Source: Calditrichota bacterium
GTDB lineage: Bacteria; Electryoneota; Electryoneia; Electryoneales; Electryoneaceae
Assembly (NCBI GenBank): GCA_018263585.1
Contig: JAANWZ010000130.1
Coordinates: forward strand, 14,062 to 78,061
Direction of reading: 5' to 3'
Length of the DNA stretch: 64,000 bases
The notes beneath the pieces are model-generated. The model did not search any database, was not told where the DNA came from, and saw only the letters and a program-made list of their open reading frames with translations. Shown one piece after another: positions 15,459 through 39,363 of this stretch. Made by a program: the position numbers and the translations under genes. Each line of letters opens with the position of its first letter. The first letter of the stretch is position 1.

Positions 15459-15626
15459 GTCATTCTGAAGCCGGCTTCACGCGTCTGTCTGCGTGAAGGC
15501 GGGTGGAGAAGGTCCACGTTATCCAAGGGTCATTTCACGAGTTTCATGGTATCCTCCACCCTTGTCGAAGCTGGACCTTCTTCCCTTCGCCCGACAAACG
15601 GACGTCGGGCTTCGGTCAGAATGACG
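15459..15626. repeat. MITE/REP-like element, copy D
   Basis: GTCATTCTGAAGCC...GGTCAGAATGAC. Reverse complement of copy F. Confidence 0.8.
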
Positions 15627-15720
15627 CCCTTTCCACCCGCTATTTTGCTCCCGGCTGAGCCAAAGGGATGACCGGATGCGAGCAGGCGTCGAAGCGAGTG
15701 CAGCGTGTACGGAAGGGACG

Positions 15721-16230
15721 ATGAGCCCGGAGCAGTACAACATCGACGAAGTGTTCGAGATGGCGGAACAGCTCGAGCGCAACGGCGCGCGTTTCTACCG
15801 CACCGCCGCGCGCCGCGCCGAGCGCGACATCGCCAACGAGATGCTGCTCGAACTCGCTGCGATGGAGGACGACCACGAGCGCGTGTTCATGCGGATGCGC
15901 GAACGGATCGCGCGCCGGGAGTTCGGCGACGTGTACTACGATCCGGAAGGCGAGGCCGGGCGCTACATCCAGGCGATGATGCACGGGCGCGTGTTCGGCG
16001 TCGAGGGCGATCCGTCGCGCGCGATCCAGCCCGGCGAGCCGCTCGACAGCATCCTGCGCACGGCGATCCTGCTCGAAAAAGACACGATCGCGTACTATTC
16101 GGGGATCAAGCTCGTGATGCCGGAGGACTTGGGCAGGGACAGGGTGGACTCGATCATCCGCGAGGAGATGAGCCATGTCACCCTGCTCAACCGCCGGCTC
16201 GAGCAGACGTTGAAACAGGGCGGGCGTTGA
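15721..16230 (+). CDS. Rubrerythrin/ferritin-like domain protein
   Basis: Paired EXXH-type helices (ELAAMEDDHERVF, REEMSHVTLL) typical of the ferritin-like diiron superfamily. Confidence 0.5.
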   Translation: MSPEQYNIDEVFEMAEQLERNGARFYRTAARRAERDIANEMLLELAAMEDDHERVFMRMRERIARREFGDVYYDPEGEAGRYIQAMMHGRVFGVEGDPSRAIQPGEPLDSILRTAILLEKDTIAYYSGIKLVMPEDLGRDRVDSIIREEMSHVTLLNRRLEQTLKQGGR

Positions 16231-16292
16231 GCGCCGCCAAGGTGGGAACGCGGGCCGCGGGGACGGCTCGCCAGTCATTCGGAGGAGCAAGT

Positions 16293-16772
16293 ATGCAGAT
16301 TATGCGTGGCATTCTGACGGCGTTGATCGTGCTCGCGGTCGCCGCCTGTTCGAGCAGCGATCAGCCGGCGGAGGAGATGGAAACCGCCGCCGTGATCGAG
16401 AAAGGCGAGCCGATCACAATCACCGACGTGACGTCGATCGACTCGATGATGGCGAACCCCGATCAGTACCTGAACAAGCATGTGCGGATCGAGGGTGAAG
16501 TGATGGGCCGTTGCGAAGGGAGCGGCTGCTGGATCTCGCTCGACCGCGGCGAGGAAAGCGAAGGGCTGATCGTCCAGGCCGCCGACCGCTCGTTCATCTT
16601 CCCCGAGGATTGCGTCGGCAAGCGCGTTGTCGTGCAGGGTGCGCTGATGCTTCACAACCCGGAGGAGATCGCGGAGCACGAACACGAGATGGGGGAAGGC
16701 GAGGAGAAGGACCACACCTGCCCGAACCCGGAGTACTTCTTCGCGCCGGAGGGGTTGAAGGTCACGTCCTGA
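16293..16772 (+). CDS. Lipoprotein, DUF4920-like, Cys/His-rich
   Basis: GGAGGAG RBS. Signal peptide plus lipobox (LAVAAC). CEGSGC and HTCPNP motifs. Confidence 0.5.
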   Translation: MQIMRGILTALIVLAVAACSSSDQPAEEMETAAVIEKGEPITITDVTSIDSMMANPDQYLNKHVRIEGEVMGRCEGSGCWISLDRGEESEGLIVQAADRSFIFPEDCVGKRVVVQGALMLHNPEEIAEHEHEMGEGEEKDHTCPNPEYFFAPEGLKVTS

Positions 16773-16850
16773 CGCGAACGCTCGTATTGCGAGCGATGGG
16801 CGGGCACTTCCGGGTGACCGCCGTATCTCGTGCTTCTACCCGGGGACATG

Positions 16851-17522
16851 CTACGGCAACCGCTCCGGCTGGCCGCTGAGCGCGTAGGCGATGATGTTCA
16901 CGCCCATCTGCAGCGCGGCCTCGCGTTTCGCCGCGGGGACGTTGTGCACGTCCGCATCCTCCCACCCGTCGCCGAGATCCGTCTGGTACGTGTAGTAGAG
17001 CACGACGCGGCCGTCGATCACGATCGCGTAGCCCTGCGCCGGTTCGCCGTCGTGCTTGTGGATCTTCGGCGGGCCGTCGGGGAACGGGAACACCATGTGG
17101 TAGATCGGGTGATCGTACGGCAGCTCGACCAGTTCCTCCTCCGGGAATACCTTGCTGATCTCCCGGCGGAACGACTCGTCGAGCCCGTAGTTGTCGTCCA
17201 CGTGCATGAACCCGCCGCCGAGCAGGTAGTCGCGCAGCCGGCCCGTCTCTTCCTTCGAAAACCGGATGTTCCCGTGCCCGGTCAGGTACAGGTACGGGTA
17301 GCGGAACAGGTCTTCGTCCATCAGCCGGACGACCTTTTCCTTTTCCGCTGTCTCAACGCCGAGCGTTTCCTCGAGGTAACGCTGGAGGTTGGCGAGCGAG
17401 GTCGGGTCGCCGTACCAGTCGCCGCCGCCGTCGTAGTGAACCCGTGCGATCGCGAACGGTTCGGCGGCGGCGGTTGCCGCGAGCGTGGCCAGCAGTGCGA
17501 GTGCGGCAATCAGAATACGCAT
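16851..17522 (-). CDS. DUF4159-domain secreted protein
   Basis: Signal peptide MRILIAALALLATLAATAAA. Conserved YYTYQTDLGDGWED region typical of DUF4159. Confidence 0.55.
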   Translation of the reverse strand: MRILIAALALLATLAATAAAEPFAIARVHYDGGGDWYGDPTSLANLQRYLEETLGVETAEKEKVVRLMDEDLFRYPYLYLTGHGNIRFSKEETGRLRDYLLGGGFMHVDDNYGLDESFRREISKVFPEEELVELPYDHPIYHMVFPFPDGPPKIHKHDGEPAQGYAIVIDGRVVLYYTYQTDLGDGWEDADVHNVPAAKREAALQMGVNIIAYALSGQPERLP

Positions 17523-17580
17523 CAGCAGTTGAGCTCTCGTCGGTGGATATGATCCGACTCGTGTACTCGGCGAACCGCGA

Positions 17581-18231
17581 CTATTCTCCGCCGCTCGGTT
17601 CAAACCGCACGAGATCGAAGAGCAGACCGTTCATGTCCTCGCGGACGACGCCGATGTCCTCGCTGAAGTACGTGTACGTCGTGTCAGTGGACGGGGGAAG
17701 CGGTGGATACTCCTGGACCTTAATGTCACGCACGACGAGGGTTTCGTACGTGCCCGAGTCGAGCTCGAGCGCATGTTCCGTCGCGATGATCTCGGAATCC
17801 ACGTAGTAGGTGGCGGTCTGCGAGCTGTTGTCCACCTTGCGCCAGGTTCGTTCCTCTTCGAGCGGCGCCTGCAGTTCGAGCAACTGGTCATCGAAGTTCT
17901 CGTAGATCGACACGTACAGGTTCTTCCCGGCCCAGCGCGCGTACTGCTTGCTCGTCTCGTTCTGCCGGTACACGTCGAACTCGCATTCCATCCCGTTCAC
18001 AGACGTTTCGTACTCGATGATCGTGTACGTGAACTCGACGCCTGCGTTGTTCTCGTACACCCACGTGTGTCCGAGTTGCATCGGGTAGAACTTGCGCGCC
18101 TGCTCGTACGACTGATTCTGCTCGATATTCGTCGGCTGGGGAGTCTGCGTTCCGCACGCGGTCGGGATCAGCAGTGCGGCGAGGGCAACTGCGAGTATCT
18201 CAAAACGGGATGATTTGGCGGCCGAGCGCAT
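17581..18231 (-). CDS. Hypothetical lipoprotein
   Basis: Signal peptide plus lipobox (LLIPTAC). Tyr/Thr/Glu-rich with good GC3. No family recognised. Confidence 0.45.
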   Translation of the reverse strand: MRSAAKSSRFEILAVALAALLIPTACGTQTPQPTNIEQNQSYEQARKFYPMQLGHTWVYENNAGVEFTYTIIEYETSVNGMECEFDVYRQNETSKQYARWAGKNLYVSIYENFDDQLLELQAPLEEERTWRKVDNSSQTATYYVDSEIIATEHALELDSGTYETLVVRDIKVQEYPPLPPSTDTTYTYFSEDIGVVREDMNGLLFDLVRFEPSGGE

Positions 18232-19252
18232 CGAGCACCTTCGCAAGAAGTTGACGCCGTTCCCGGTACGGCAGAAACGCGGATTTGAACCCCATCACGA
18301 TCAGGTCCTTGATCCCGCGCTTCGTGAACCCGAGATGATCCTGTGCGAGCGCGAGTTCACGGGAAACGGTGGTGTTGGACATCAGTGTGTTGTCCGTGTT
18401 CACCGTCACCCGCAAGCCCTGATCAAAGTAAAACTTGATCGGATGCTGCTCCAAATCGGGGACGGCGCCGACATGGACGTTCGACGACAGGCAGCACTCG
18501 AGCGGGATGCGGTGGTCGTTCACGTAGTTGAGCAGATCGCCGTCCTCTTTCAGCCGCGTGCCGTGACCGATCCGGTGCGCGTTCAGGTCGTGCAGCGCCT
18601 GGCGGATGCTCGCCGGCCCCCACGCCTCGCCCGCGTGCACGGTGCACGGAATGTTGTTCTTCCGGATCAGGTAGAACGCGTCCGCGTGGTCCTTCGCCGG
18701 GTACGAGTCCTCCTGGCCGGCGAGGTCGAAACCGACGACGCCGCGTCCCTTGTAGGAGATCGTGAGCTCCGCCAGTTGCAGTGACGTCGACGGGTCGATC
18801 GAACGGATCCCGCACACGATCACACCCGTCCGGATCCCCGTCTTCCGTTCGCCATCGTGCAACCCGGCGAGCACGGCGTCCATCACGCGCACAAGCGAGA
18901 GCCCGAGCCGCTGGTGCAGCACCGGCGAGAACCGCACCTCCAGGTACCAGACACCGTCGTCCCACGCGTCCTCGCACAGTTCGGTCGCGATCCTCGCGAT
19001 GTCCTCTTCCTGCTGCATCACGGAGAGCGTGAGCTCGAACGCCTCGAGATAGTCGGCGAGCGAGCCCGGCCTGCTCCCGGCCGCGATGATGCGCCCGAGC
19101 TCTTCGGGATCGTGGGCGGGGAGGCTGACGCCGCGTTTCTCCGCGATTGCGACCATTGTCCGCGGGCGCAGCGACCCGTCGAGGTGACGATGGAGATCGG
19201 TCTTCGGAAGAGACCTGATCTCTTCCAGTGTGAAGCGGTTTGACTCAGTCAT
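18200..19252 (-). CDS. add: Adenosine deaminase
   Basis: HRHLDGSL metal-binding motif, CTVHAGE, and SxNxxxxxDD near the C-terminus. The start could instead be the upstream ATG at 19285. Confidence 0.85.
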   Translation of the reverse strand: MTESNRFTLEEIRSLPKTDLHRHLDGSLRPRTMVAIAEKRGVSLPAHDPEELGRIIAAGSRPGSLADYLEAFELTLSVMQQEEDIARIATELCEDAWDDGVWYLEVRFSPVLHQRLGLSLVRVMDAVLAGLHDGERKTGIRTGVIVCGIRSIDPSTSLQLAELTISYKGRGVVGFDLAGQEDSYPAKDHADAFYLIRKNNIPCTVHAGEAWGPASIRQALHDLNAHRIGHGTRLKEDGDLLNYVNDHRIPLECCLSSNVHVGAVPDLEQHPIKFYFDQGLRVTVNTDNTLMSNTTVSRELALAQDHLGFTKRGIKDLIVMGFKSAFLPYRERRQLLAKVLDALGRQIIPF

Positions 19253-19514
19253 GGGATACTCTGCGAGAGTAACTGATTCAAGCAACGATCACGCGGGTCG
19301 TACACGCGGCACTCGATGAACGCGCCCGATCAGGGCCCATGCAGCAACTGGCGGCGGATGTCACGGCTGAGCCGGCGTGTTGTCTCCGCGGGCAAATCGT
19401 GCCACATGCCGTGCACCATAGGCGTTGACTTTTCCGGGCCCTCATTCACACGGACGACTTCCACCTTCGCGCGGGGCATATCATTGAACAGCGGATCGTT
19501 CGACGCAATCGTGA

Positions 19515-19802
19515 TCATCTCCTCCGGCTCGATCTCCCGCGGCGCGTCGAAGAAAAGCAGAGATGATCTGCGCGGGGATGCGCACGAGCAAGCGCGGCGC
19601 GGTTCGTTTCGTCGTCGCCCCCTCCGGCGGACCGTACCGCTGGCGGACGAGCGTGCGCGCGCGAACGCATCCGCCATTCACGCAGTGCGAGCACGAACGC
19701 GATCACGAGGAACGCGAGCAGGATCACTACGGCGAACACATCCCAGAAACTCAGCTCTTCCGGCTGCTGAAAAAAGCCCAGAATATCCTGCAGGCGTTCC
19801 AT
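19515..19802 (-). CDS. Small single-TM membrane protein, possibly frameshifted into the downstream frame (19330..19677)
   Basis: N-terminal TM helix (FWDVFAVVILLAFLVIAFVLAL). Then Arg-rich low complexity. An adjacent overlapping frame encodes a plausible ~75 aa C-terminal domain. Confidence 0.3.
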   Translation of the reverse strand: MERLQDILGFFQQPEELSFWDVFAVVILLAFLVIAFVLALREWRMRSRAHARPPAVRSAGGGDDETNRAALARAHPRADHLCFSSTRRGRSSRRR

Positions 19803-19971
19803 AATCGCAATCCGCGAAGTCCGTACCGGGGTTGCGTTTTCTGCTTCGCAACCGGACGTTCACCGGAGCGGTGACCGTGACAAATGAGTGGTGGAAAATA
19901 GCAAGGAACCGCGCGCCAGCCAAACCCGAATACGCGTAACGCAAATCCGCACGGGCCGCGGCTCCCGCAGG

Positions 19972-21078
19972 CTACGCCCGCACGCCGCTTACGAGCCGGA
20001 TCGGGTTCGAGTAGATCCAGCCGCGCCCGCGCCGGTGCACTTCCACGCGATAGACGCCCGGCAGATCGGTCTCGTAGCTGAGAGAGCGCCCGCGCGCCCG
20101 CAACAGCAGGCGGCCGTCGCGCAAAAGGTGGATGCGCCCGGGCAGCGGTGTGCGCGCGCGAAACCGGGTGCGACGCCCGGCCGGCAACGTGGAGACCGGC
20201 AGGCAGCGGCCGCCCGCATGTTCGGCGAAGAAGCGAAACCCGTGCGGGTCGCCGCCGCGGTGGTTCGCGCCGAAGTGACGGCCGCTGCGCAGCGCGCCGA
20301 ACACCTGGTCGCGCGCCCGTGCGTAGTCGTGCCGCGCGAGCGGTTCGTCCAAAAGCAGATGGGTGAGCAGGCTGCGGAACTGGACCTTGTAGTGGAACAC
20401 CTTCACCCGCACGAGCCCGCGCAGCAGCGGGTACCGGATCGCGTGCGCGTCCACGCCGACATACCCGACCACCGGCCGCTCGCGGTTGAGCCGGTCCCAG
20501 CTCGCGAGCGTGGCCGCGGACGGTTGCGTGAGGCTCTTAAGCGGATGGATGAACCTGTGATAGCGGTTGAACCGGGTCAGCCCCTCGACCCACTGGCTGA
20601 GCTGGTTCCAGATCTCGATCCCGTCGATCGGCGCGTTCCACTCGGTCCACGGGTACGGCGGCATGTCCGCGAACTGGTCGCGCCGCTCGTGCGGGTGCGC
20701 GACCGCGCCGAATCCCCCCGCTTCATGCACGCGCTCGATCATGCGCGCCGGGTCGGACTGGTCGGGGACATCCTCGATGCCGAACGCGAGGTAGTGGTTC
20801 GGTCCGTGCTCGTTTCCGAGCTCGGATCCGATCAGCACCCACACATCGCCGTAGCGCCCGTATTCGCCGCGCGCGAACGCCTCCATGTGACAGTGGTCGG
20901 TGATGATCAGCCAGTCGAGCTCGCGTTCGCCGGCGTAGCGGGCGATCTCTCCGACCGTGCCGGTGCCGTCCGAATACGTCGTGTGCATGTGCAGCACGCC
21001 GGCGCACTCGTGGATCTCCCGCGGCGCGTGTTGGACGGCGGTTTCGAGTTCCCGGAGCCTTCTTGTCATGGCCGACAA
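19972..21078 (-). CDS. PHP-domain metal-dependent phosphoesterase
   Basis: LHMHTTYSDG, ITDH, and AHP motifs of the polymerase/histidinol-phosphatase family. Arg-rich C-terminus. Confidence 0.65.
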   Translation of the reverse strand: MSAMTRRLRELETAVQHAPREIHECAGVLHMHTTYSDGTGTVGEIARYAGERELDWLIITDHCHMEAFARGEYGRYGDVWVLIGSELGNEHGPNHYLAFGIEDVPDQSDPARMIERVHEAGGFGAVAHPHERRDQFADMPPYPWTEWNAPIDGIEIWNQLSQWVEGLTRFNRYHRFIHPLKSLTQPSAATLASWDRLNRERPVVGYVGVDAHAIRYPLLRGLVRVKVFHYKVQFRSLLTHLLLDEPLARHDYARARDQVFGALRSGRHFGANHRGGDPHGFRFFAEHAGGRCLPVSTLPAGRRTRFRARTPLPGRIHLLRDGRLLLRARGRSLSYETDLPGVYRVEVHRRGRGWIYSNPIRLVSGVRA

Positions 21079-21121
21079 TGTAGCGCGAACGGCGGGGGAG
21101 AGGGAGTGGGCCGGCGCGGAA

Positions 21122-21718
21122 TCAGAGCGCGAATGTAACGGTCATCCCCACCTGCACGCCGTCGCCGGAAGGCGCGCTCTCCACGTTCGGATCGATGCGG
21201 AAATCGTAGAGGTGGGCTTCGACGTACGCGTCGAACACGGACAGCAACGTGACACCGGCGGTCCACCACAGCAGCTTGTTGCGGTCGTCGCGGTAGAAGT
21301 TCGCGGTGCGCTCGAGCAGGCGCTGTTCCGCGTCCGTCTTCGTCTTCTCCGACAGCTCGCGCGCGTCGAGGTAACGGGTGTGCTGCACTGCGGCGCCGTA
21401 GAGGAACCCGACATCGACGCCCAGGAACACCGCAGCCTTGATCCAGTTTCCCGTGTACGCCTGCCCCCAGCCGGGGAGGATCGCGCTGCGCAACGCCGCG
21501 CCGGTCGGGCTCTTGCTGAGCGGGACGCCGTGCTCCACGCGCGCGCTGTCCATCCGCGAAATGCGGTACGCCGCCGGCCGCTCCACTCCGCGGGGAGCGG
21601 ACATACTGCTCGTGTCGGCCTGAGCGGAGCTGACATCCTGGGCGAACACAGGCGCCGGCCGCGACAGGATCGCGACGAGCGCGGCGAGCACGACCAGCCA
21701 GCGCGCCGCGCGCGTCAC
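21122..21718 (-). CDS. DUF5683-domain protein (secreted)
   Basis: Signal peptide. [19 protein letters not shown] motif characteristic of DUF5683. Confidence 0.55.
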
Positions 21719-22101
21719 TCCTCGATCACCGCGACGGATTCCATCTCGACGAGCACGTCCTTCGGCAGCCGAGACGCCTCGACCGCGCTGCGCGCCGGGG
21801 CGTCGCCGGGGAAGTACTCCGCGTAGATCTCGTTCACCGTGATGAAATCGTCCATGTCCTGCAGGTACACGGTCGTCTTCACCACGTTCGCGAGCGAAGA
21901 ACCGCCGGCTTCTACGACCGCTTTCAGGTTCTCCAGCACCTGTCGCGCCTGTTCTTCGATCGTGTCGCCGGCGATCTCCCCGCTCGCCGGGTCGAGCGCG
22001 ATCTGGCCGGCGGTGAACAGGAACGCTCCGCTCGCGCGCACGGCCTGGTTGTACGGGCCGATCGCCCCCGGAGCCCGGTCGGTGCGCACAACAGTCCTCA
22101 T
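21715..22101 (-). CDS. ridA: RidA/YjgF-family reactive-intermediate deaminase
   Basis: 128 aa with PYNQAV...[11 protein letters not shown]...VKTTVYL, canonical for RidA. 4-nt overlap with the downstream gene. Confidence 0.85.
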
Positions 22102-22168
22102 CGGGAAGTCTCCTCTCCGTGCGGATTGCAGTTCAGCTCGCGTACGTTAGCCGAATCGGCGGTCGCGA

Positions 22169-24494: not shown

Positions 24495-24497
24495 GGG

Positions 24498-28651: not shown

Positions 28652-28976
28652 CGTGCGTTCTCCCTGATTCGGGGACAGTCCGGGCGTCCGTGACCGCTCC
28701 GCCGGAGTCCCCCCGCGGTCGATCCAACATCGCAATATAGGGCGTGGCCCGGAGCGAAAACAGGTTTCCCCGTTCGCTCCCGCGGGCGCGCTGGTCCCTT
28801 TGCGCGCCGGGGCCTCCGGGGACGCTTGCTTGCAAGCGTCCCCTGCCTCTGCCACGTCTCCTTTGCGCGAGCGGGACCGGCGAATGTATGCTCTACACCG
28901 TTGTTCGTGAACGCTGCCCGTGGGAACGCCCGCTCCGGCGTTCCGTCTCTTTCACCGCAACCACCGGCGAGCGACG
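28652..28976. promoter_or_regulatory. Divergent promoter region between the GT-deacetylase-flippase operon (-) and the ABC exporter pair (+), containing the 26-bp palindrome
   Basis: 325-bp spacer between divergent start codons. Perfect palindrome at 28818-28843. Confidence 0.4.
28818..28843. repeat. 26-bp perfect palindrome GGGGACGCTTGC-TT-GCAAGCGTCCCC
   Basis: Seen directly. Lies in the divergent GT-operon / ABC-exporter intergenic region. Confidence 0.85.
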
Positions 28977-32653: not shown

Positions 32654-33673
32654 GTGGCGCGAGGCAAACTCACTCCCGCGGATTTCAGGAAACGTGCGCG
32701 CGCGGGCTCGCTCGCACCCGTGTACGCCGCGATCGGCGGGGAACTGCTGCTGCACGACGCCGTTGAACACGCCGCGCGCGCGATCCCGGACGAGCCCACG
32801 CGCGACTTCAACCTTGACATCCTTCACGGAGACGGGCTCGATGCGCGCGAGCTCGCGCCGGCGCTGTCCGCGCTGCCGGTGATGGCCGAGCGCAGGGTCG
32901 TACTCGTGAAACACGCGGAAGCGATCACACCGACCGTGCAGAAGTACGTCTCCGAGTACGCGAACGATCCGGTCGAGAGCACGCTGCTCGTGCTCCTGAT
33001 CGGCACGGACGGGAAGCAGGCGTGGGTGAAGAAGCTCGCGTCGGCCGTGGACGTGATCGACTGCGGCACTCCGCGGCGGCCGGCGCTCGCAAAATGGGCG
33101 CGGCGCACGGCGGAACAGCTCGGCGTCGGCATCGACGAGGACGCACTCGCGCTGCTGACCGACACCGGCGGGCGCTTGATCGACCTGTACGGCGAACTGC
33201 TGAAGGCGTCGCTGCTGATCGACGAGGGGGAGACGATCACGCTCGAGGTGCTGCAACGCGTCTGGGGCATCCGTGAGGAAGTGAACGTGTGGTCGTTTTT
33301 CGATCACGTCGCCGCCGGTGACAGGCTCACCGCGTTGAAGGAGCTGGAGGTGCTCCAGGACAATATCGACAAGGACTCGGGTTTTTTCTTCTCGCAGATC
33401 GCGCGGCGCTGGCGTCTCGCGGCGAAGGAGCGGGGCTACGATCGGCGCAGAGTGCCCCCTTCCGAGCGCAGATGGAGCGGGAACACGAAGCGGCAGTGGC
33501 AAATGGCGTCGGCGGCTGTGCGCGCCTTACCTTTCTCGTTTACCGACCGGCAGCTCGAGCGCCTGCTCGTCCATGACCGAACGAGGAAGACGCGCACGCT
33601 CGACCCGATGATCGGCTTCGCCAATCTGATCCACCGTATCTCGCTCGATCGGAAGGATGTCAATAATGGCTGA
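32654..33673 (+). CDS. holA: DNA polymerase III delta subunit-like
   Basis: 339 aa. N-terminal region resembles HolA clamp-loader delta (PVYAAIGGELLLHDAVEH...). GTG start after GGAGGA. Confidence 0.5.
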   Translation: MARGKLTPADFRKRARAGSLAPVYAAIGGELLLHDAVEHAARAIPDEPTRDFNLDILHGDGLDARELAPALSALPVMAERRVVLVKHAEAITPTVQKYVSEYANDPVESTLLVLLIGTDGKQAWVKKLASAVDVIDCGTPRRPALAKWARRTAEQLGVGIDEDALALLTDTGGRLIDLYGELLKASLLIDEGETITLEVLQRVWGIREEVNVWSFFDHVAAGDRLTALKELEVLQDNIDKDSGFFFSQIARRWRLAAKERGYDRRRVPPSERRWSGNTKRQWQMASAAVRALPFSFTDRQLERLLVHDRTRKTRTLDPMIGFANLIHRISLDRKDVNNG

Positions 33674-34277
33674 GCGGCCACGTCCGAATCATGAGCAACC
33701 ATACAGGGATCTCACCGACGAAGAGCTGATGGCGCTCGTCCAGCAGGACGACGAGATCGCGTTCGAGCTCCTCGTCGAGCGCTATCAGCATCCGTTGATG
33801 ACTTTCATCTCCCGCTTTCTCGGAGCGGGCAGCCACACGCAGGACGTGTTGCAGGAGACGTATATCCGCGTGTGGCGGCACCGGCATCACTACAAGACGG
33901 TCGCCAGGTTCTCGACCTGGGTCTATACGATCGCGGGCAACCTCTCGAAGACTGAGCTGCGCCGGCAGAAGATCCGGCGCATGGTCCCGATCCGCACCGG
34001 CGGGGAGTCACCGGAGGACGAGTCGGTCGATGTCGAGGATCCGGGGCCGGCGACGGACGAGCGCGCGCGGCGAAACGAGATCCGCCGCCGGGTGAACCAG
34101 GAGATGCAGCGGCTGCCGGACGCGTATCGCGCCGCCGTGATCCTGAGAGACTTGCAGAACAAGAGCTACGAGGAGATTGCGGAGATTCTCAATGTGCCGA
34201 TCGGCACGATCAAGTCGCGTGTAAACCGCGGGCGCGCCCGGCTGCAGAAGCGGCTCAAGGCCCTCCGGGAGCCGTAA
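33666..34277 (+). CDS. ECF-type RNA polymerase sigma-70 factor
   Basis: Region 2 (YIRVWRHRHHY...STWVYTIAGN) and region 4 HTH (SYEEIAEILNVPIGTIKSRVNRGRARL). Confidence 0.85.
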   Translation: MAERPRPNHEQPYRDLTDEELMALVQQDDEIAFELLVERYQHPLMTFISRFLGAGSHTQDVLQETYIRVWRHRHHYKTVARFSTWVYTIAGNLSKTELRRQKIRRMVPIRTGGESPEDESVDVEDPGPATDERARRNEIRRRVNQEMQRLPDAYRAAVILRDLQNKSYEEIAEILNVPIGTIKSRVNRGRARLQKRLKALREP

Positions 34278-34651
34278 TCGGCCGCCGGGGAACCTTGACG
34301 GCCGGGGCGAGTACCAGCATCGAAACACGCGTTCGTCCGACTCATGCACGGTGTCGCGTCCGGTTCCGGGGAGGTGTTCGCGGAGCTGTCCGGGAACGCC
34401 TGCGCGACTTGCGTGTGCAACCGTTCGACGATGGCAGTGGAGGACCGCGCCGGTCCCGGTGTGCGCGGCGCGGGAGCTGCTTGACAGTGCGATTGCTTCC
34501 TCACGGTGTCGTACATGGTCCGGGGGATGAGCCGCGTTCGTACCGGCTCACGGATCCATCAATACAGGTCTGCTTGTTCAGGGAGATGGAGGTGACGAAG
34601 CCCGTGGAGGCAAGCTGTATGTCCGCGGGCGAGTGAGAACCGTTGACATGA

Positions 34652-35197
34652 GTGTGGACGATGAATCTTGAGACGTTTGAGGAGCTCTGGCCGGAGCGCG
34701 ACCGGATGGACGACGAAACGCGTGCGCTGCTTGAACAGATGTACGCGAGCGATCGTCACTGCCGCGCCTACGCCGACGGCGGTGATTGGGTGAGAGTTCT
34801 CCTGCAGGCTGATGATCCCGAGCTCGCCCCCGCCGATTTGTCCTACCGAATGCGCCTGTTCGCGCAGAACAACCCCGACACAGACGAACCCGGTTCACGA
34901 TCCTGGCTGCGCTGGCCGGTTGTCACGGTCGGAGCTGCGGCCGGAGTCGCCGCGATGTTTGTCGCGTTCGGCCCGATGCTGAACGAGGAACACGCGTCGA
35001 CTGCGCCCGCGAGCGCCGGCCACTCGGGGGAAGAGGACGCTCGGATGGCGCCGGTTCCATTGGTTCTCGGTGCGGACGAGACAAGAGAGCTGGCGAAGTC
35101 GTCGGACAGCACGCGCGCGGACAGCGTGAAAACCCCTGCGCGGGACGTCGATCAGCCCGACTGGGACATGCGCGCCGTGAGCGCGGGCAACCAGTAA
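34652..35197 (+). CDS. Putative anti-sigma factor (single TM)
   Basis: N-terminal cytoplasmic segment with HC motif. One TM helix (WPVVTVGAAAGVAAMFVAF). Low-complexity periplasmic tail. Lies downstream of the ECF sigma after a 380-nt spacer. Confidence 0.35.
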   Translation: MWTMNLETFEELWPERDRMDDETRALLEQMYASDRHCRAYADGGDWVRVLLQADDPELAPADLSYRMRLFAQNNPDTDEPGSRSWLRWPVVTVGAAAGVAAMFVAFGPMLNEEHASTAPASAGHSGEEDARMAPVPLVLGADETRELAKSSDSTRADSVKTPARDVDQPDWDMRAVSAGNQ

Positions 35198-35355
35198 TCG
35201 CCCGTACGCGGGACCGGCTCGTGTTCAGACGCCGCCCCGGTGCGGCAGGGTGGCCCGGGGCTCCCCGCGGGTTTCATGCACGCATGGATAAGCCGCGCGG
35301 GCAAGGTGCGCACCGCACCCGGGCCGCACGGGCGACACTGATGTGATTGGCGGAG

Positions 35356-35381
35356 GGGGACGCTTGCTGGCAAGCGTCCCC
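35356..35381. repeat. 26-bp perfect palindrome GGGGACGCTTGC-TG-GCAAGCGTCCCC
   Basis: Seen directly. In the non-coding region downstream of the putative anti-sigma gene. Confidence 0.85.
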
Positions 35382-35527
35382 GGTGTCGGGGCCTGGTGGC
35401 CCGCGAGCTTGCCGCGGGACAGGAGTCTGAGCTACATTCCACACCTGCAGATCCACCCGTCCCCGGGTGGATCGCTTATCTTGAACGGTTCGCAATTACA
35501 GGGCCGGTTGCGCATTCGGCGCAGGGT

Positions 35528-35680
35528 GTCATCCTGAACAAGCGCGGCGTCCGTTTGCCGCGCGCTGTGAAGGATCTACGCGGTGCACCACCAGGATGTC
35601 ATTTGACACGCACCCGCGCGGTTCTTGCTGGCAGATCCTTCACCCCCGCACAATAGAGACGTGCGGGGGTTCAGGATGAC
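35528..35680. repeat. MITE/REP-like element, variant copy E
   Basis: GTCATCCTGAACAAGC...GTTCAGGATGAC termini. Divergent interior carrying the GAAGGATC / GATCCTTC pair. Confidence 0.7.
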
Positions 35681-35780
35681 ACTGAGGCGGCGCTAAAACG
35701 GACCGGTGGCTGGGGTCCAAGATGACTCGACCTTGCATTTGCGCGGAAGCCTATTCAAAGAGAAACGCAGGAGTTTTCAG

Positions 35781-35978
35781 ATGGCCAAGGGGAAATCGTT
35801 CGCCGCGAAGCTGGCGAAGGGAAAGGGCGCGTCGAAGCGGGTGAACGCCGCCGGCGAAGAGATAACCACCGTGCGCGTGCTCAAGCCCACCGAGGTCCCG
35901 GGCAAGCCCGGCGTGTATCGTTATCGTGAAGTGATGGTGGACGTGGTCCCGTCGAAGGAAAAGGAGATCTTTGGCTGA
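35781..35978 (+). CDS. Small basic protein (DUF4295-like?)
   Basis: AGGAG RBS. 65 aa, Lys-rich N-terminus and PGKPGVYRYREVMV core resemble DUF4295 small proteins. Confidence 0.4.
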   Translation: MAKGKSFAAKLAKGKGASKRVNAAGEEITTVRVLKPTEVPGKPGVYRYREVMVDVVPSKEKEIFG

Positions 35979-37161
35979 TCGCGACCGCCGTGCGTTCCTG
36001 ATCGTGCTCGACGGCGTCGGGATCGGCGCGGCGCCGGACGCCGGCGAGTACGGTGATGCCGGCGCGAACACGCTCGCGCATGTCGCCGGTATGTCCGGCG
36101 GGGTGGAGCTGCCCGTGCTCGCGCGACTCGGGCTCGGAAACATCGCCTCGCTCACAGGCGTCCGGCCGGCGCGGAATCCGCAGGCGTCCCACGGGCTGAT
36201 GCGCGAACTCGGCGCCGGCAAGGACTCGATCACCGGCCACTGGGAACTGTGCGGCGTGATCAACGACACGCCGTTTCCCACGTACCCGGACGGGTTCCCC
36301 GGCGACGTCGTCGCTCTCGTCGAGCGGATCAGCGGCCGGGACGTGATCGGCAACGAGGCGGCCTCGGGCACGGAGATCATGCAGCGCCTGGGCGCGGAGC
36401 ATCTGCGCACGGGCGCTTTGATTATCTACACTTCCGCCGATTCCGTGCTCCAGATTCTCGCGCACGAACGTGTAGTCCCGCTTGCCGAGCTGTACCGGAT
36501 CTGCGAGCGCATCCGCAGGCAACTCCCCCGCGAGCACCGGGTCGGGCGCGTGATCGCGCGGCCGTTCGCCGGTGAACAGGGCGGGTTCGAACGCACCGCG
36601 AACCGCCGCGACTTCGCCGTCGAGCCGCCCGATCAGACGCTGCTCGACCAGTTGATGAGAGAGCGGGTGCGCGTGCACGGGATCGGCAAAGTGGACACGC
36701 TGTTCGCGGGAAGAGGCTTCACGAGCCGCACGCGCACGAAGAGTAACACGGACGGGATCATTGCCACGCTCGAGCGAATCCGATCGACGGTGCCCGGTCT
36801 CGTGTTCACGAACCTGCTCGATTTCGACACGCGCTGGGGCCACCGGAATGACGTCGCCGGCTTCGCGAAGGGCCTCGAGGATTTCGACAAGGGGCTCAAG
36901 TACTGGGTCGAAGCCCTGCGCCCGGGCGATTTGATGATTCTCACCGCGGATCACGGCAACGACCCGACCTTCCCGGGCACCGACCACACGCGCGAGCTCG
37001 TTCCGCTGCTCGCATGGCATGGCGGTGGGATCCGCGGCCGTGACCTCGGCCTGCGCCACGGGTTCGCCGATGTCGCCGCGACTGTAGCCGCGCATTTCGG
37101 GCTCGAATGGAACGGTCCGGGCGAGTCGTTCCTCTCCGATGTGCCGTATCCGTGGGGTTGA
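35971..37161 (+). CDS. deoB: Phosphopentomutase
   Basis: LIVLDGVGIG and TADHGND alkaline-phosphatase-superfamily motifs typical of DeoB. TTG start after AAGGAG. Confidence 0.85.
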   Translation: MADRDRRAFLIVLDGVGIGAAPDAGEYGDAGANTLAHVAGMSGGVELPVLARLGLGNIASLTGVRPARNPQASHGLMRELGAGKDSITGHWELCGVINDTPFPTYPDGFPGDVVALVERISGRDVIGNEAASGTEIMQRLGAEHLRTGALIIYTSADSVLQILAHERVVPLAELYRICERIRRQLPREHRVGRVIARPFAGEQGGFERTANRRDFAVEPPDQTLLDQLMRERVRVHGIGKVDTLFAGRGFTSRTRTKSNTDGIIATLERIRSTVPGLVFTNLLDFDTRWGHRNDVAGFAKGLEDFDKGLKYWVEALRPGDLMILTADHGNDPTFPGTDHTRELVPLLAWHGGGIRGRDLGLRHGFADVAATVAAHFGLEWNGPGESFLSDVPYPWG

Positions 37162-37176
37162 GCAGAGCGGCTGCCG

Positions 37177-37767
37177 ATGACGAAGTTGTACGTATCAACG
37201 AAGAACCCGGACAAACTCCGCGAGCTGGGTGAACTGCTCGGCGCGGATGTCGAGCTGCTCCATCCGGACCCGGGCGACCCGGAGATCGAGGAGACGGGCG
37301 CGACGTTGTCGGAAAACGCGCGCCTGAAGGCGGAAGCGGGCCACCGTCGCAGCGGGCTGATCAGCCTCGCCGACGATACGGGCCTGGAGGTCGATGCGCT
37401 CTCCGGCGCGCCGGGCGTGTACTCCGCCCGCTACGCCGGCCCGGGCGCGAGCTACCGGGACAACCTTCAGCGGCTGCTGCGCGAGCTGCACGGCACGGAT
37501 CCGGCTCACCGCACGGCCCGGTTTCGCTGCGTGATCTGTTGCGCGGGCGTCGATAATGAGCCTCGTCGCTTCGACGGCGTGCTCGCAGGCCGGATCATCG
37601 ACACGCCCCGCGGCGACCGCGGATTCGGCTACGACCCGGTGTTCGTCCCGGACGGCGAGGAACGCACGCTCGCCGAGCTGAGTGCAGATGAGAAGAACCG
37701 GATCAGCCACCGCGGGCGCGCGCTCCGGGCGTTTCTCGCCTGGTGGAGAGAGAGGGTGGCTGTTTGA
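37177..37767 (+). CDS. rdgB: Non-canonical purine NTP pyrophosphatase (RdgB/HAM1)
   Basis: 196 aa with TKNPDKLRE, FRCVI, and GFGYDPVF motifs. Confidence 0.88.
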   Translation: MTKLYVSTKNPDKLRELGELLGADVELLHPDPGDPEIEETGATLSENARLKAEAGHRRSGLISLADDTGLEVDALSGAPGVYSARYAGPGASYRDNLQRLLRELHGTDPAHRTARFRCVICCAGVDNEPRRFDGVLAGRIIDTPRGDRGFGYDPVFVPDGEERTLAELSADEKNRISHRGRALRAFLAWWRERVAV

Positions 37768-37822
37768 TTTGACGGCGCGGGTTCCGTTCATGACCGGACC
37801 GCGCGAGCTGGATGAGGCGACG

Positions 37823-39034
37823 ATGCCGGTGAAGGAGAAGAAGCGGCCCGCCGTGGACGCGGGAGCGCGAGTCGGCGGGCCGGTCTATCTCGACCACAGC
37901 GCGACCACGCCCGTGGACCCCGAGGTGGCGGATCTCGTGCACCGAGTGATGCTCGAGGGCTGGGGCAACCCGAGCAGCAAGTACAAGCCCGGCAACGCGG
38001 CGAAGATCGTGCTCGAACGCAGCCGCGAACGTGTCGCAAACCTGCTCGGCGCGCCGAAGGAGGACGTGTTCTTCACCTCCGGCGGCACGGAATCGGACAA
38101 CCTCGCGATCTTCGGGGTGATGGAGGCGGCTCGTGACGCCGGCCGCGGCGACCACTTCATCACCGACGCGATCGAGCACAGCGCCGTGCTGCACACCGTG
38201 GACGCGCTCCGCGAGGACGGTTTCCGTGTCACCGTGCTCCCGGTGACGGCGGGCGGGTTCGTCGAGCCGGATGCGCTGCGCGACGCGATCGACGACCGCA
38301 CCGTGCTCGCGAGCGTGATGCACGTGAACAACGAGATCGGCACGATCGAGCCGATCCGCGAGCTGGCCGCGGTCGCGCATGAACGCGGCGTTCTTTTCCA
38401 CACCGACGCTGTGCAGTCGTTCGGCAAAGAGGCGTTGGATGTGCGCGAGTCGGAGGTTGATCTCGTGTCGGTGAGCAGCCACAAGATCTACGGGCCGAAG
38501 GGTGTCGGCGCGCTCTACATCCGGCACGGCGTCGAGATCCGCCCGCGCCAGTTCGGCGGCGGGCAGGAGCGCGGAATCCGCACCGGCACGGAGAACATGC
38601 CCGGGATCGCCGGCTTCGGCGCGGCCGCGGAGTTGTGCGGTGAACGGATGGACGCCGACCGCGAGCGCATCGGCGCGCTCTGTGACCGCTTCCTCGGCTG
38701 GATCCGCGACGAGTGCGGCGGCGATGTGCTCGTCAACGGCAGCCGCGAGAACCGGATCTACCTCAACCTCAACCTCCGCTTCCCGGACGTGGAAGGCGAA
38801 TCGCTGTTGCTCGCGCTCGACCTCGACGGAATCGCGGTGTCCACCGGGTCCGCGTGCAGCTCCGGTTCGACGGAGCCGTCACACGTGCTGCTCGCACTCG
38901 GGCTCAGCGAACAGGAGGCGCACTCTTCGATTCGGCTCACGCTCGGCCGCGGCAACGACGAGGTCGGTCTCCGTTACGCCGCGGAGTGTATCGGCCGCCA
39001 CGTCCGCCGCTTGCGTGAGATGGCGGCGTGGTGA
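37823..39034 (+). CDS. Cysteine desulfurase (IscS/NifS family)
   Basis: YLDHSATTP. SSHKIYGPKGVGALY (PLP lysine). SGSACSSGS active-site Cys loop. GAGG RBS. Confidence 0.88.
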   Translation: MPVKEKKRPAVDAGARVGGPVYLDHSATTPVDPEVADLVHRVMLEGWGNPSSKYKPGNAAKIVLERSRERVANLLGAPKEDVFFTSGGTESDNLAIFGVMEAARDAGRGDHFITDAIEHSAVLHTVDALREDGFRVTVLPVTAGGFVEPDALRDAIDDRTVLASVMHVNNEIGTIEPIRELAAVAHERGVLFHTDAVQSFGKEALDVRESEVDLVSVSSHKIYGPKGVGALYIRHGVEIRPRQFGGGQERGIRTGTENMPGIAGFGAAAELCGERMDADRERIGALCDRFLGWIRDECGGDVLVNGSRENRIYLNLNLRFPDVEGESLLLALDLDGIAVSTGSACSSGSTEPSHVLLALGLSEQEAHSSIRLTLGRGNDEVGLRYAAECIGRHVRRLREMAAW

Positions 39035-39171
39035 GATGGTTTCCCCGGGCGGCGTCCCGGTGCTGTGTCGTCGCGCCGGGCGAGGACGACTCACTTCCCT
39101 CGTGCGTGCACTTGCGAGCATTCGGTTATCCCTTTGGCTCAGCCGGGAGCAATATCGCGGGTGGCAAGGGT

Positions 39172-39363
39172 GTCATTCTGACCGAAGCCCGACGTCTTTT
39201 TGTCGGGCGAAGGGAAGAAGGTGCAGGTCTGACACGGGTGGAGGATACCATGAAACTCGTGAAATAACCCTTGGATAAGCTGGACCTTCTTTATCCGCGT
39301 TCACGCAAACAGACGCGTGAGGAGGGGACGCTTGCTGGCAAGCGTCCCCACAGCCAGAATGAC
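39172..39363. repeat. MITE/REP-like element, copy F (inverse orientation of D; carries a nested 26-bp palindrome)
   Basis: About 85% identical to the reverse complement of D. GGGGACGCTTGCTGGCAAGCGTCCCC is inserted near one end. Confidence 0.8.
39324..39349. repeat. 26-bp perfect palindrome GGGGACGCTTGC-TG-GCAAGCGTCCCC (nested in element F)
   Basis: Seen directly. Confidence 0.85.

What the first reader, a model, noticed from the sequence alone, without database searches (positions are those of the whole stretch)
15459..39363. Inverted copies D and F of the same element 24 kb apart; F carries a nested 26-bp palindrome
Element F (39172-39363) is the reverse complement of D (15459-15626) along its whole length. 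The shared blocks include GGGTGGAGGATACCATGAAACTCGTGAAAT and the terminal GTCATTCTGACCGAAGCCCGACGTC. F also contains an inserted GGGGACGCTTGCTGGCAAGCGTCCCC. This suggests nested insertion of one small palindromic repeat into another. The inverted pair could mediate inversion of the intervening ~24 kb, which includes the GT operon, ABC exporters and the sigma/anti-sigma pair.
Basis: seen in the sequence. Interest (0 to 1): 0.5.

Follow-up and report, generated by a model that had tools for sequence, protein, structure and literature searches.

The report
Abundant nested palindromic intergenic repeats
The two inverted sequences are real, but they are only two of about ten copies in this 64-kb stretch of a small, hairpin-forming, non-coding repeat that has spread between the genes of an uncultured bacterium, and the DNA between them has not been flipped.

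Summary
D and the reverse complement of F align at 86% identity. The homology is longer than reported: about 310 nt (15379-15688) against about 335 nt (39109-39443). F carries an extra 26-nt palindrome that also occurs twice on its own in the window.

D and F are not a special pair. They are one subfamily of a dense repeat family with ends GTCATTCTGA/TCAGAATGAC. The window holds at least 9 copies, all intergenic, several inside conserved operons (nuoL-M-N, iscS-mnmA-panB). Other pairs exist: A2/H (inverted, 34 kb apart) and G/I (direct, 21 kb apart).

Each copy is built of concentric inverted repeats:
- a subfamily-specific outer shell
- the shared 10-nt end
- a side hairpin whose loop (GTCNGTTT) is conserved while its stem covaries
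- a GAAGAAGGTCC clamp
- a subfamily-specific core

Two syntenic relatives have short, empty spacers at the same sites and are collinear across both D and F, so no inversion is fixed. I found no target-site duplication, no transposase carrying these ends, and no Rfam match.

Best reading: non-autonomous MITE/REPIN-like mobile repeats, probably recognised as folded single strands. This is a new member of a known kind, of modest interest.

The parts
15379..15688 (+). D composite unit (whole palindromic repeat, outer shell included)
   Evidence: The extended D/F alignment gives outer ends CGCTTGCGAGCATCCGG (15379-15395) and CCGGATGCGAGCAGGCG (15672-15688). The ssDNA fold is -81.9 kcal/mol, z = -6.4. 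The unit lies between a promoter-like site at 15347-15375 and the rubrerythrin ATG at 15721.
15459..15625 (+).
   Evidence: folds as a four-way junction
15475..15498 (+). D left side hairpin CTTCACGC-GTCTGTCT-GCGTGAAG
15589..15610 (+). D right side hairpin GCCCGAC-AAACGGAC-GTCGGGC
15516..15572 (+). D/F-specific core between the GGTCC and GGACC clamps. It contains the longest D/F exact block (15532-15561).
39109..39443 (-). F composite unit (the same subfamily as D, opposite orientation)
   Evidence: ssDNA fold z = -3.8; lies between the iscS stop (39034) and the mnmA start (39474)
39172..39363 (-). One end is GTCATTCTGA; the other is degenerate (CCAGAATGAC).
39324..39349 (.). 26-nt perfect palindrome GGGGACGCTTGCTGGCAAGCGTCCCC nested in one arm of F
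39187..39208 (+). F side hairpin GCCCGAC-GTCTTTTT-GTCGGGC
39300..39321 (+). F second side hairpin TTCACGC-AAACAGAC-GCGTGAG
28818..28843 (.). stand-alone copy of the 26-nt palindrome (centre TT), in the divergent spacer between the glycosyltransferase (GT) operon and the ABC exporter genes
35356..35381 (.). stand-alone copy of the 26-nt palindrome, 147 nt upstream of copy E
9168..9309 (+). family copy A1 (nuoL-nuoM spacer)
9340..9564 (+). family copy A2 with its outer shell (inner module 9376-9529); inverted partner of H
11096..11248 (+). family copy B (nuoM-nuoN spacer; that spacer is 18 nt in the relatives)
35528..35680 (+). family copy E (ends GTCATCCTGA)
40629..40842 (+). family copy G with its shell (inner module 40655-40788), in the mnmA-panB spacer; direct partner of I
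43909..44179 (-). family copy H (same subfamily as A2, reverse orientation, with an extra end layer on both arms)
62080..62293 (+). family copy I (85% identical to G)

Best explanation
SHOWN. D and F are two diverged copies (86% identical, opposite orientation) of one composite subfamily of a non-coding, palindromic, interspersed repeat family. The family has proliferated in the intergenic spacers of this uncultured, 65% G+C bacterium (a MAG labelled Calditrichaeota).

Every copy is an onion of concentric inverted repeats:
- a subfamily-specific outer shell
- a shared 10-nt end, GTCATTCTGA
- a side hairpin with conserved loop GTCNGTTT and a covarying stem
- a GAAGAAGGTCC clamp
- a subfamily-specific core

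As a single strand, each copy folds into a four-way junction (a 'clover'). The copies are lineage-specific insertions: the same spacers in two syntenic relatives are short and empty. Smaller palindromes, such as the 26-mer in F, and further end modules are nested inside copies.

INFERRED (about 0.4 for this step). The copies are non-autonomous and are moved in trans by an enzyme not encoded in the window. That enzyme recognises the folded single-stranded ends, as HUH/Y1 transposases do with IS200/IS605 ends and REPINs. That would fit three features: the absence of target-site duplications, loops that are more conserved than stems, and mirror-symmetric gain or loss of layers.

INFERRED. In operons the copies are co-transcribed as large stem-loops and tolerated, because they lack terminator tails and leave stop codons and ribosome-binding sites intact.

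The D/F pair has no dedicated role. It is a possible but inefficient recombination substrate, and the present gene order is the ancestral one.
For: Repeat family:
- The 10-mer end occurs 21 times (<=1 mismatch) against 2.9 expected.
- There are nine bounded copies plus solo ends, all between genes.
- An nhmmer profile of the end module finds 19-20 ends in the 64-kb window against one weak element in 82 kb of syntenic DNA from the relatives.

Lineage-specific insertions:
- iscS/mnmA/panB overlap or lie <=35 nt apart in the relatives, against 439 and 219 nt in the window.
- nuoM-nuoN is 18 nt against 244 nt.
- DinB-rubrerythrin is 142-232 nt against 451 nt.
- The spacer upstream of the LytR_C-domain gene is 63 nt against 331 nt.

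Repeat status in independent data:
- Logan short-read contigs from 4 runs stop inside F, G and D.

Architecture:
- Folds are (z = -6.4 and -3.8).
- The D/F, A2/H and G/I alignments show shared inner modules with different shells and cores.

Hairpin covariation (21 distinct ends from 4 genomes):
- 89.8% of cells are paired, against 56% in shuffles and <=43.5% when the partners are slid.
- All 7 pairs show double-sided changes, 45 such cells in total.
- The loop is >=90% conserved at 5 of 8 positions.

Other points:
- The family is present with the same plan in related MAGs (MAG87, CAXXKJ, CAJVXH, CAZKGR).
- No direct repeats flank either the GTCAT ends or the shell ends.
- No terminator-like sites lie in or around D, F or G.
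- REPINs are described as inverted doublets with compensatory changes and an alternative 'clover' fold that a Y1 transposase might read (PMC3116915).
Against: - No transposase of any kind carries these ends in the roughly 450 kb held. The only Y1 transposase found is an independent IS200-family IS that has inserted into copies in relatives; it is not the family's parent.
- Long terminal inverted repeats (>=28 nt, conserved across phyla) are more typical of DDE transposons than of IS200/REP elements.
- REPs normally carry a GTAG head, which is absent here.
- In the CAJVXH genome the outermost layer is flanked by TA on both sides. That could be a Tc1/IS630-type duplication.
- Copies are in both orientations within one replichore. 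That argues against strict strand-specific insertion.
- The hairpin set was selected for forming hairpins, so the paired fraction is inflated.
- Palindromes can also keep complementarity through the way they arise, not only through selection.
- No relative is close enough (best 71% MnmA identity) to give exact empty sites.
Confidence: 0.7

Rival explanations
1. Classical MITEs. The copies are deletion derivatives, or end mimics, of a DDE-transposase insertion sequence. They are cut and pasted in trans via the double-stranded terminal inverted repeats. Target duplications are short (for example TA) or have decayed. The hairpins and shells are passengers or earlier nested insertions.
For: - Size is 134-335 nt, the copies are non-coding, and the inverted ends are long and conserved across several phyla.
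- Copy number is high, location is intergenic, and presence/absence differs from the relatives.
- CAJVXH copies end in TATAGT...ACTATA with TA on both sides.
- An IHF-type consensus lies in the core of G, I and several relatives' copies, as in Correia-type MITEs (PMC2229807).
- The MITE definition allows direct repeats to fade with age (PMC10969869).
Against: - No direct repeats flank any window copy, nor the two identical-ended young copies in L012.
- The module shared by the subfamilies is internal, not terminal.
- Loop-conserved, stem-variable hairpins make no sense for a protein reading duplex DNA.
- No DDE transposase with these ends was found.
Confidence: 0.3
2. One reading: the D/F inverted pair works as, or commonly causes, an inversion switch for the intervening 24 kb.
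For: Inverted orientation, about 310 nt of homology, and four exact blocks of 24-30 nt. Homologous recombination between inverted repeats is known to invert segments (established knowledge).
Against: - Gene order and orientation across both junctions are identical to two relatives.
- Identity is only 86%.
- An inversion would break the conserved iscS-mnmA-panB arrangement and remove the rubrerythrin gene from its promoter-like site.
- Other pairs of the family (A2/H, G/I) would be equally eligible.
- No recombinase gene or site-specific crossover sequence was seen.
Confidence: 0.04
3. Host-selected structured elements. The copies persist mainly because they serve the cell, for example as mRNA stabilisers or processing sites inside operons, 5'-UTR regulators, or nucleoid-protein (IHF/HU) binding sites. 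Mobility would be secondary.
For: - Strong predicted folds.
- Placement inside operons and in a 5' UTR that leaves stop codons, ribosome-binding sites and a promoter-like site intact.
- A conserved loop motif across genomes.
- IHF-like sites in some cores.
- REP/BIME, ERIC and Correia elements have such documented side effects (PMC2229807; PMC10969869).
Against: - The sites are not conserved between relatives.
- Orientation relative to transcription is not fixed: D and F are opposite.
- The cores differ between subfamilies.
- There is no Rfam match, even at E <= 1.
- Preservation of gene signals is what purifying selection on random insertions would leave in any case.
Confidence: 0.12
4. Assembly or binning artefact: repeats collapsed or mis-joined in the MAG contig.
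For: Short-read assemblies do break at these repeats.
Against: - Independent Logan contigs from several runs reproduce the unique-to-repeat junctions at D, F and G base for base.
- Gene order matches two independent relatives throughout.
- The copies differ from one another, so they are not collapsed duplicates.
Confidence: 0.02

Closest known systems
REPINs (REP doublets forming hairpins) with RAYT transposases, e.g. Pseudomonas fluorescens SBW25 (PMC3116915)
   Same: - Extragenic and non-coding, with many copies per genome.
- Two inverted end modules, each with its own small palindrome, separated by a less conserved spacer.
- Alternative long-hairpin and 'clover' folds.
- Compensatory changes.
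- No target duplication.
- Lineage-specific sequence families.
   Different: - No GTAG head.
- The ends are longer and have several concentric layers.
- The loop, not the stem, is the conserved part.
- No RAYT was found. The only Y1 transposase seen nearby scores as IS200, not RAYT, and is an independent IS.
- These units are 134-335 nt, larger than SBW25 REPINs, whose two invariant 16-mers start 71 bp apart (PMC3116915).
Correia elements (CREE/NEMIS) of Neisseria and similar bacterial MITEs (RUP, ERIC), as reviewed in PMC2229807 and PMC10969869
   Same: - 100-300 nt with terminal inverted repeats, intergenic, often co-transcribed.
- Strong stem-loop transcripts.
- Size variants produced by internal segments.
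- An IHF-type site in the core of some copies.
   Different: - No TA or other duplication was demonstrated in the window.
- G+C-rich rather than A+T-rich.
- No related IS was identified.
- The side hairpins with covarying stems and the subfamily-specific outer shells have no counterpart.
BIMEs / BOX elements (mosaic, modular intergenic repeats of E. coli and S. pneumoniae)
   Same: Built from a small set of modules that occur in different combinations and numbers, located between genes of operons.
   Different: The modules here are arranged concentrically (mirror-symmetric), not head-to-tail. There is no sequence similarity, and the function of the modules is untested.
IS200/IS605 family and its non-autonomous derivatives (PATEs)
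   Same: Structure-dependent ends, no target duplication, and hairpins near the ends. A genuine IS200-family IS lives inside copies of this family in relatives.
   Different: - IS200/IS605 ends are not inverted repeats of each other.
- The IS found has different hairpins (CCGAAGC-TT-GCTTCGG).
- It also moves without the GTCATTCTGA ends (L049).

Membership tests
MITE (definition in PMC10969869) | Length under about 500 bp and non-coding | tested here: met
   Inner modules are 134-192 nt and composite units 214-335 nt. Only a 5-codon mini-ORF is present.
MITE (definition in PMC10969869) | Terminal inverted repeats | tested here: met
   GTCATTCTGA / TCAGAATGAC, extended to >=28 nt with the GAAGAAGGTCC clamp. 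The shells also end in inverted repeats.
MITE (definition in PMC10969869) | Flanking direct repeats (target-site duplication), at least in young copies | tested here: not met
   None at the GTCAT ends or the shell ends of any window copy, nor at the L012 copies. There is an ambiguous TA at CAJVXH copies only.
MITE (definition in PMC10969869) | Multiple dispersed copies with presence/absence variation between genomes | tested here: met
   At least 9 copies in 64 kb, with orthologous spacers empty in two relatives.
MITE (definition in PMC10969869) | A related autonomous IS whose transposase can act in trans | tested here: inconclusive
   None in the window or in about 450 kb of related loci. The whole genome is not available.
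REP/REPIN-RAYT system (PMC3116915) | Inverted doublet of end modules that folds into a hairpin, with compensatory changes | tested here: met
REP/REPIN-RAYT system (PMC3116915) | A cognate RAYT (Y1 transposase) gene, usually single-copy and flanked by the repeats | tested here: inconclusive
   No RAYT in the sequence held. The Y1 gene in L006/L048/L049 scores as IS200 (127 bits) and is below the RAYT cut-off (34 < 80). It is multi-copy and moves alone.
REP/REPIN-RAYT system (PMC3116915) | Conserved GTAG-type head next to the REP palindrome (from my own knowledge of REP classes) | tested here: not met
   The ends read GTCATTCTGA; there is no GTAG adjacent to the side hairpins.
Correia-type MITE | TA target duplication and a TATAG... 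terminal repeat | tested here: not met
   Not present in the window copies. A TATAGT end with TA is seen only in the outer layer of the CAJVXH copies.
Correia-type MITE | IHF binding site in the core | tested here: inconclusive
   The consensus WATCAANNNNTTR is present in G and I only (2 hits, 0.14 expected) and in some relatives' copies. D and F have a degenerate version. Binding is untested.
IS200/IS605-derived element (PATE) | Left and right ends that match the subterminal hairpins of a resident IS200/IS605 element | tested here: not met
   The IS hairpins CCGAAGC-TT-GCTTCGG / CCCCGTAGC-TT-GCTGCGGGG differ from the family's GTCNGTTT-loop hairpins.
Intrinsic terminator | G+C-rich hairpin followed by a T run | tested here: not met
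   0 terminator-like sites in 15200-15800 and 38950-40900.
Any curated RNA family (Rfam 15) | Covariance-model match | tested here: not met
   0 hits at gathering scores. There are only two sub-threshold chance hits at E <= 1.
Invertible-segment (site-specific inversion) system | Inverted crossover sites plus an adjacent recombinase, with both orientations found | tested here: not met
   No recombinase was noted next to D or F. The orientation is identical to two relatives. Population-level orientation is not testable with these tools.

The most novel reading that the evidence does not exclude
The family is a REPIN-like population in a deep FCB-group lineage that is propagated as folded single-stranded DNA. 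An as yet unidentified structure-specific enzyme reads the conserved GTCNGTTT hairpin loop. The elements grow by inserting into, or copying across, the symmetry centre of existing palindromes. That would produce the concentric 'Russian-doll' layers and the mirror-symmetric gain or loss of layers seen between A2 and H. It would be a mode of repeat evolution and target choice not described for REP/RAYT or MITE systems.
Probability: 0.15. Interest if true: 0.55.

Novelty: new member of a known kind. Interest (0 to 1): 0.3.

Why it matters
The practical value is mainly for annotation and assembly.

- These repeats roughly double to tenfold the length of many intergenic spacers in this lineage.
- They sit inside essential operons (NADH dehydrogenase, iscS-mnmA-panB).
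- They break short-read assemblies.
- They generate spurious ORFs and wrong start codons.

Recognising them prevents over-interpreting any single pair as a regulatory switch.

Biologically, they add an undescribed, very dense palindromic repeat family from an uncultured FCB-group bacterium. Its hairpin loop is conserved while its stem covaries. If followed up in a complete genome, this could identify the enzyme that moves it and test whether REPIN-like single-strand mobilisation exists outside the Proteobacteria and Cyanobacteria.

Tried and rejected
- Rfam at gathering and at E <= 1: nothing relevant.
- Literature search by sequence strings of the ends: only primers and unrelated hits.
- The look-up of encoding contigs with nuoM from 9550: no record. 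The start codon was wrong; the real start is probably 9583.
- Metagenome scan for the 26-nt palindrome: 0 hits.
- The second and last metagenome scan, for the D/F outer-shell arm, used a mis-specified pattern that does not match even the window. It is uninformative. The corrected pattern finds the four D/F arms plus L041.
- Viral-contig scan for the end pattern: 0 hits.
- Idea that the IS200-family gene bracketed by family ends in L006 is the autonomous parent or a RAYT: rejected. It interrupts a standard copy at one point (...CTTCAC|IS|TTCGTTCAGAATGAC). An identical IS in L049 lies outside any copy after ...TGTTCAC. It scores as IS200, not RAYT.
- Search for any gene bracketed by inverted family ends 0.6-3.5 kb apart: only host genes (FG-GAP, fatty-acid desaturase, luciferase-like).
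- Terminator role: no T tails.
- The SD + 5-codon mini-ORF in the D/F core as a functional leader: not supported, because it is sense to transcription in F but antisense in D.
- Bacteroidetes-type promoter inside the shell: no convincing match on reading the sequence.
- Orientation bias as a test for strand-specific insertion: copies run both ways within one replichore, which is not decisive for near-palindromic elements.

Full report
OBSERVATION

- The reverse complement of F aligns with D over its whole length. Mean column identity is 87%. The repeat finder reports inverted arms of 208 nt at 89% and of 89 nt at 76%. Self-blastn gives E = 2e-78.
- The homology does not stop at the GTCATTCTGA ends. 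It runs from about 15379 to 15688 and from 39109 to 39443.
- Over these units there are 264 matches, 42 mismatches and 30 gap columns (86% identity). The longest exact run is 30 nt.
- F has an extra 26-nt perfect palindrome at 39324-39349. D has a diverged 9-nt stretch there.

D AND F ARE NOT A SPECIAL PAIR

The 10-mer GTCATTCTGA (<=1 mismatch) occurs 21 times in the window against 2.9 expected. It bounds nine elements:

| Copy | Coordinates |
|---|---|
| A1 | 9168-9309 |
| A2 | 9376-9529 |
| B | 11096-11248 |
| D | 15459-15625 |
| E | 35528-35680 |
| F | 39172-39363 |
| G | 40655-40788 |
| H | about 43944-44143 |
| I | 62106-62239 |

There is also a possible solo end at 6185.
- A profile of the end module finds 19-20 ends in the window.
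- A2 and H are another inverted pair, 34 kb apart. G and I are a direct pair, 21 kb apart and 85% identical over 214 nt.
- All copies lie between genes, several inside operons: nuoL-[A1,A2]-nuoM-[B]-nuoN and iscS-[F]-mnmA-[G]-panB.

ANATOMY

Each copy is a set of concentric inverted repeats. From the outside in:
1. A subfamily-specific outer shell. For D/F this is CGCYTGC..GCATCCGG ... GCTCAGCC, with four arms matching GGCTGAGNNAANNGGATNACCGGATGCNNGCA.
2. The shared end GTCATTCTGA.
3. A side hairpin.
4. A clamp, GAAGAAGGTCC / GGACCTTCTTC.
5. A subfamily-specific core of 45-60 nt.

As single strands the inner modules fold into a four-way junction: a terminal stem, two side hairpins and a central stem. 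The whole D and F units fold into one long interrupted hairpin (-81.9 kcal/mol, z = -6.4; -76.5 kcal/mol, z = -3.8).

Layers can be present or absent. H differs from A2 by two mirror-symmetric 23-nt segments, which form an extra hairpin-less end module on both arms. G and I have a plain end on one side and a plain end plus hairpin plus GTCATTCTGA on the other.

THE SIDE HAIRPIN

I collected 21 distinct ends from the window and three related genomes.
- The 8-nt loop is conserved (GTCNGTTT, 5 positions >=90%).
- The 7-bp stem differs from copy to copy but stays complementary. 89.8% of cells are paired, against 56% in column shuffles and at most 43.5% when the partners are slid. All seven pairs carry double-sided changes, 45 cells in total.
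- Caveat: I chose ends that form hairpins, and palindromes can keep complementarity through the way they arise.
- A loop that is more conserved than its stem still points to recognition of an extruded hairpin (single-stranded DNA or RNA) rather than of duplex DNA.

THE 26-NT PALINDROME

GGGGACGCTTGC(NN)GCAAGCGTCCCC occurs three times in the window, with none expected. No duplication or clean insertion boundary can be seen.

ORGANISM AND RELATIVES

The MnmA protein of the window is 100% identical to one from a MAG labelled 'Calditrichaeota bacterium'. The next best hits are 71% identical.

Two relatives were compared: MAG87 (GCA_020444425.1, contig JAHLLB010000002.1) and JGI contig Ga0675942_0000053.
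- Both are collinear with the window from nuoH through nuoN, L31, DinB, rubrerythrin, DUF4920, the minus-strand glycosyltransferase block, the two ABC exporters, holA, the sigma factor, iscS, mnmA, panBC and on to argS and beyond. Rubrerythrin and mnmA are on the same strand, about 23.7 kb apart, as in the window.
- The junctions across D (DinB->rubrerythrin) and across F (iscS->mnmA) are therefore ancestral. No inversion is fixed in this assembly.

The relatives' spacers at the insertion sites are short:

| Spacer | Relatives | Window |
|---|---|---|
| iscS-mnmA | overlap or 35 nt | 439 nt |
| mnmA-panB | none | 219 nt |
| nuoM-nuoN | 18 nt | 244 nt |
| upstream of the LytR_C-domain gene | 63 nt | 331 nt |
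| DinB-rubrerythrin | 142-232 nt | 451 nt |

- Only one weak family member is present in 82 kb of these syntenic regions. The copies are lineage-specific insertions.
- The D unit sits directly after a promoter-like site (GTGAAA-17-TATATT, 15347-15375). The TATATTT box of that site is conserved in the relatives. The unit ends 33 nt before the rubrerythrin ATG, so it is probably transcribed as 5' UTR. This is an inference.
- No terminator-like sites lie in or near D, F or G.
- Short-read contigs from four runs of the source project end inside F, G and D, as expected for repeats, and reproduce the junctions exactly.

DISTRIBUTION

- Several hits per genome came from MAG87, CAXXKJ01 (a 4.5-Mb contig), CAJVXH01 and CAZKGR01.
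- A simpler relative of the end (GTCATYCTGAGCG.AGCGAAGGA...) turned up in a Chloroflexota MAG (several loci) and in single loci from Terriglobia, Eubacteriales and Opitutae MAGs.
- The related MAGs show the same plan, including GTCNGTTT-loop hairpins on different stems.
- In CAJVXH the unit has yet another outer layer, TATAGTAGTTCTTGAAAGT...ACTTTTGAGAATGACTATA, with TA on both sides. That is either a TA duplication or just an extension of the inverted repeat.
- Viral contigs gave nothing. JGI metagenomes gave nothing for the palindrome. A second metagenome scan was wasted on a mis-typed pattern.

SEARCH FOR THE MOBILISING ENZYME
- No direct repeats flank the copies at either the inner or the outer ends.
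- A tblastn with remembered IS200 and RayT sequences found one Y1 transposase gene, in L006, bracketed by family ends. Pfam Y1_Tnp scores 124 bits. NCBIfam IS200 scores 127 bits, and RAYT scores 34 bits, below its cut-off of 80.
- Closer reading shows that it is an independent IS of about 545 nt which has landed inside a standard copy, exactly between ...CTTCTTCAC and TTCGTTCAGAATGAC. It does the same in L048. An identical copy in L049 lies outside any family copy, again after TTCAC.
- This IS is therefore a tenant, not the parent.
- Genes bracketed by family ends 0.6-3.5 kb apart are ordinary host genes.
- The enzyme remains unknown.

MECHANISM

Shown:
- a multi-copy, lineage-specific, intergenic, non-coding palindromic repeat
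- a modular, nested architecture
- hairpins with conserved loops

Inferred:
- The copies are non-autonomous mobile elements.
- I favour, at about 0.4, recognition as folded single strands. That is the logic of IS200/IS605 ends and of REPINs, which are inverted REP doublets with compensatory changes and a 'clover' alternative fold (PMC3116915). The reasons are the absence of target duplication, the conserved loop, and the symmetric layer changes.
- A classical DDE MITE (definition in PMC10969869) is the main rival, at about 0.3. The long conserved inverted ends, the TA at the CAJVXH copies, and an IHF-type consensus support it. That consensus occurs in the window only in the G and I cores (2 hits against 0.14 expected), and 6 of 15 hits in related DNA lie next to the clamp.
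- Host use (RNA stability or processing, nucleoid-protein binding) may exist as a side effect. It is not needed to explain the data.

INVERSION

The D/F pair could in principle recombine. The evidence is against any role:
- The gene order is ancestral.
- Identity is 86%, with at most 30 nt of exact match.
- The product would be disruptive.
- Other equally good pairs exist.
- GC skew shows no switch within the window.

Population-level polymorphism needs long reads.

VERDICT

This is an ordinary phenomenon, interspersed palindromic mobile repeats, in an undescribed and unusually dense, layered form. It is a new member of a known kind. Interest is modest (0.3). The conserved-loop hairpin and the concentric growth are the only features worth following up.

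Noticed in passing
L006 3895-4440; L048 about 2946-3488; L049 about 2950-3488: A roughly 545-nt IS200/IS605-family IS (TnpA 148-153 aa, with HUH and Tyr motifs) lies inside copies of the repeat family in two relatives. In both it sits exactly between ...CTTCTTCAC and TTCGTTCAGAATGAC. It occurs once outside any copy, after ...TGTTCAC. This suggests a TTCAC target that the repeat's arm happens to supply.
   Followed up: yes
window 9340-9564 versus 43909-44179: A2 and H are the same subfamily, but H has two mirror-symmetric 23-nt extra segments, an additional end module on both arms. Symmetric gain or loss of a layer is unexplained.
   Followed up: partly
window 40711-40723 and 62162-62174: The only two matches to the IHF consensus WATCAANNNNTTR in the 64-kb window lie in the cores of copies G and I (0.14 expected). 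Similar sites sit next to the GGTCC clamp in copies from related MAGs.
   Followed up: partly
L043 1931-2198; L045 2258-2375; L006 3776-3793: The relatives carry a different REP-like 20-nt palindrome (CCACGGACTTMAGTCCGTGG) in the nuoK-nuoL spacer and elsewhere. Each lineage seems to have its own small palindromic repeat.
   Followed up: no
window 39250-39267 (and the reverse complement in D, within 15532-15561): The D/F core carries a Shine-Dalgarno-like GGAGGA followed by a 5-codon ORF (ATG AAA CTC GTG AAA stop). The one difference between the copies keeps a stop codon (TAA against TGA). It is sense to transcription in F but antisense in D, so it is probably meaningless.
   Followed up: partly
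window 9550 / 9583: The longest nuoM ORF starts at 9550, inside the shell of copy A2. Comparison with the relatives (RBS AGGGAGACC) places the real start at 9583. The repeat creates a false upstream start codon.
   Followed up: partly
window 15347-15381; L043 about 9940; L045 about 9955: A TATATTT box about 50 nt upstream of the rubrerythrin ATG is conserved in the relatives (TATATTTG in L045, the Bacteroidetes-type -7 motif). In the window the D unit has been inserted just downstream of it.
   Followed up: partly
L041 120-273: Four tandem 31-nt units (gacgcgggtcacaggggcatgcgtgtagaaa) are followed by a single arm homologous to the D/F outer shell (GGCTGAGTAAACTGGATAACCGGATGCGAGCA), in a different genome. 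The shell arm may be an element or motif in its own right.
   Followed up: no
L029 3869-4095; L024 5212-5421: Head-to-tail arrays of 68-nt 'half elements' (GTCATTCTGA...GAAGAATCTGGCAGG...TGATGC) precede a full copy. Short tandem heptamer and hexamer arrays lie next to copies in L048, L049 and L006.
   Followed up: no
window 6185-6230: A possible solo end (GTCATCCTGAACAAGCC...) lies in the 55-nt nuoI-nuoJ spacer.
   Followed up: no
window 40629-40640: The left shell of copy G begins at the last codons and stop codon of mnmA (GAC TGG TGA). The homologous stretch of copy I has no stop. The repeat may have supplied or reshaped the end of the gene.
   Followed up: no
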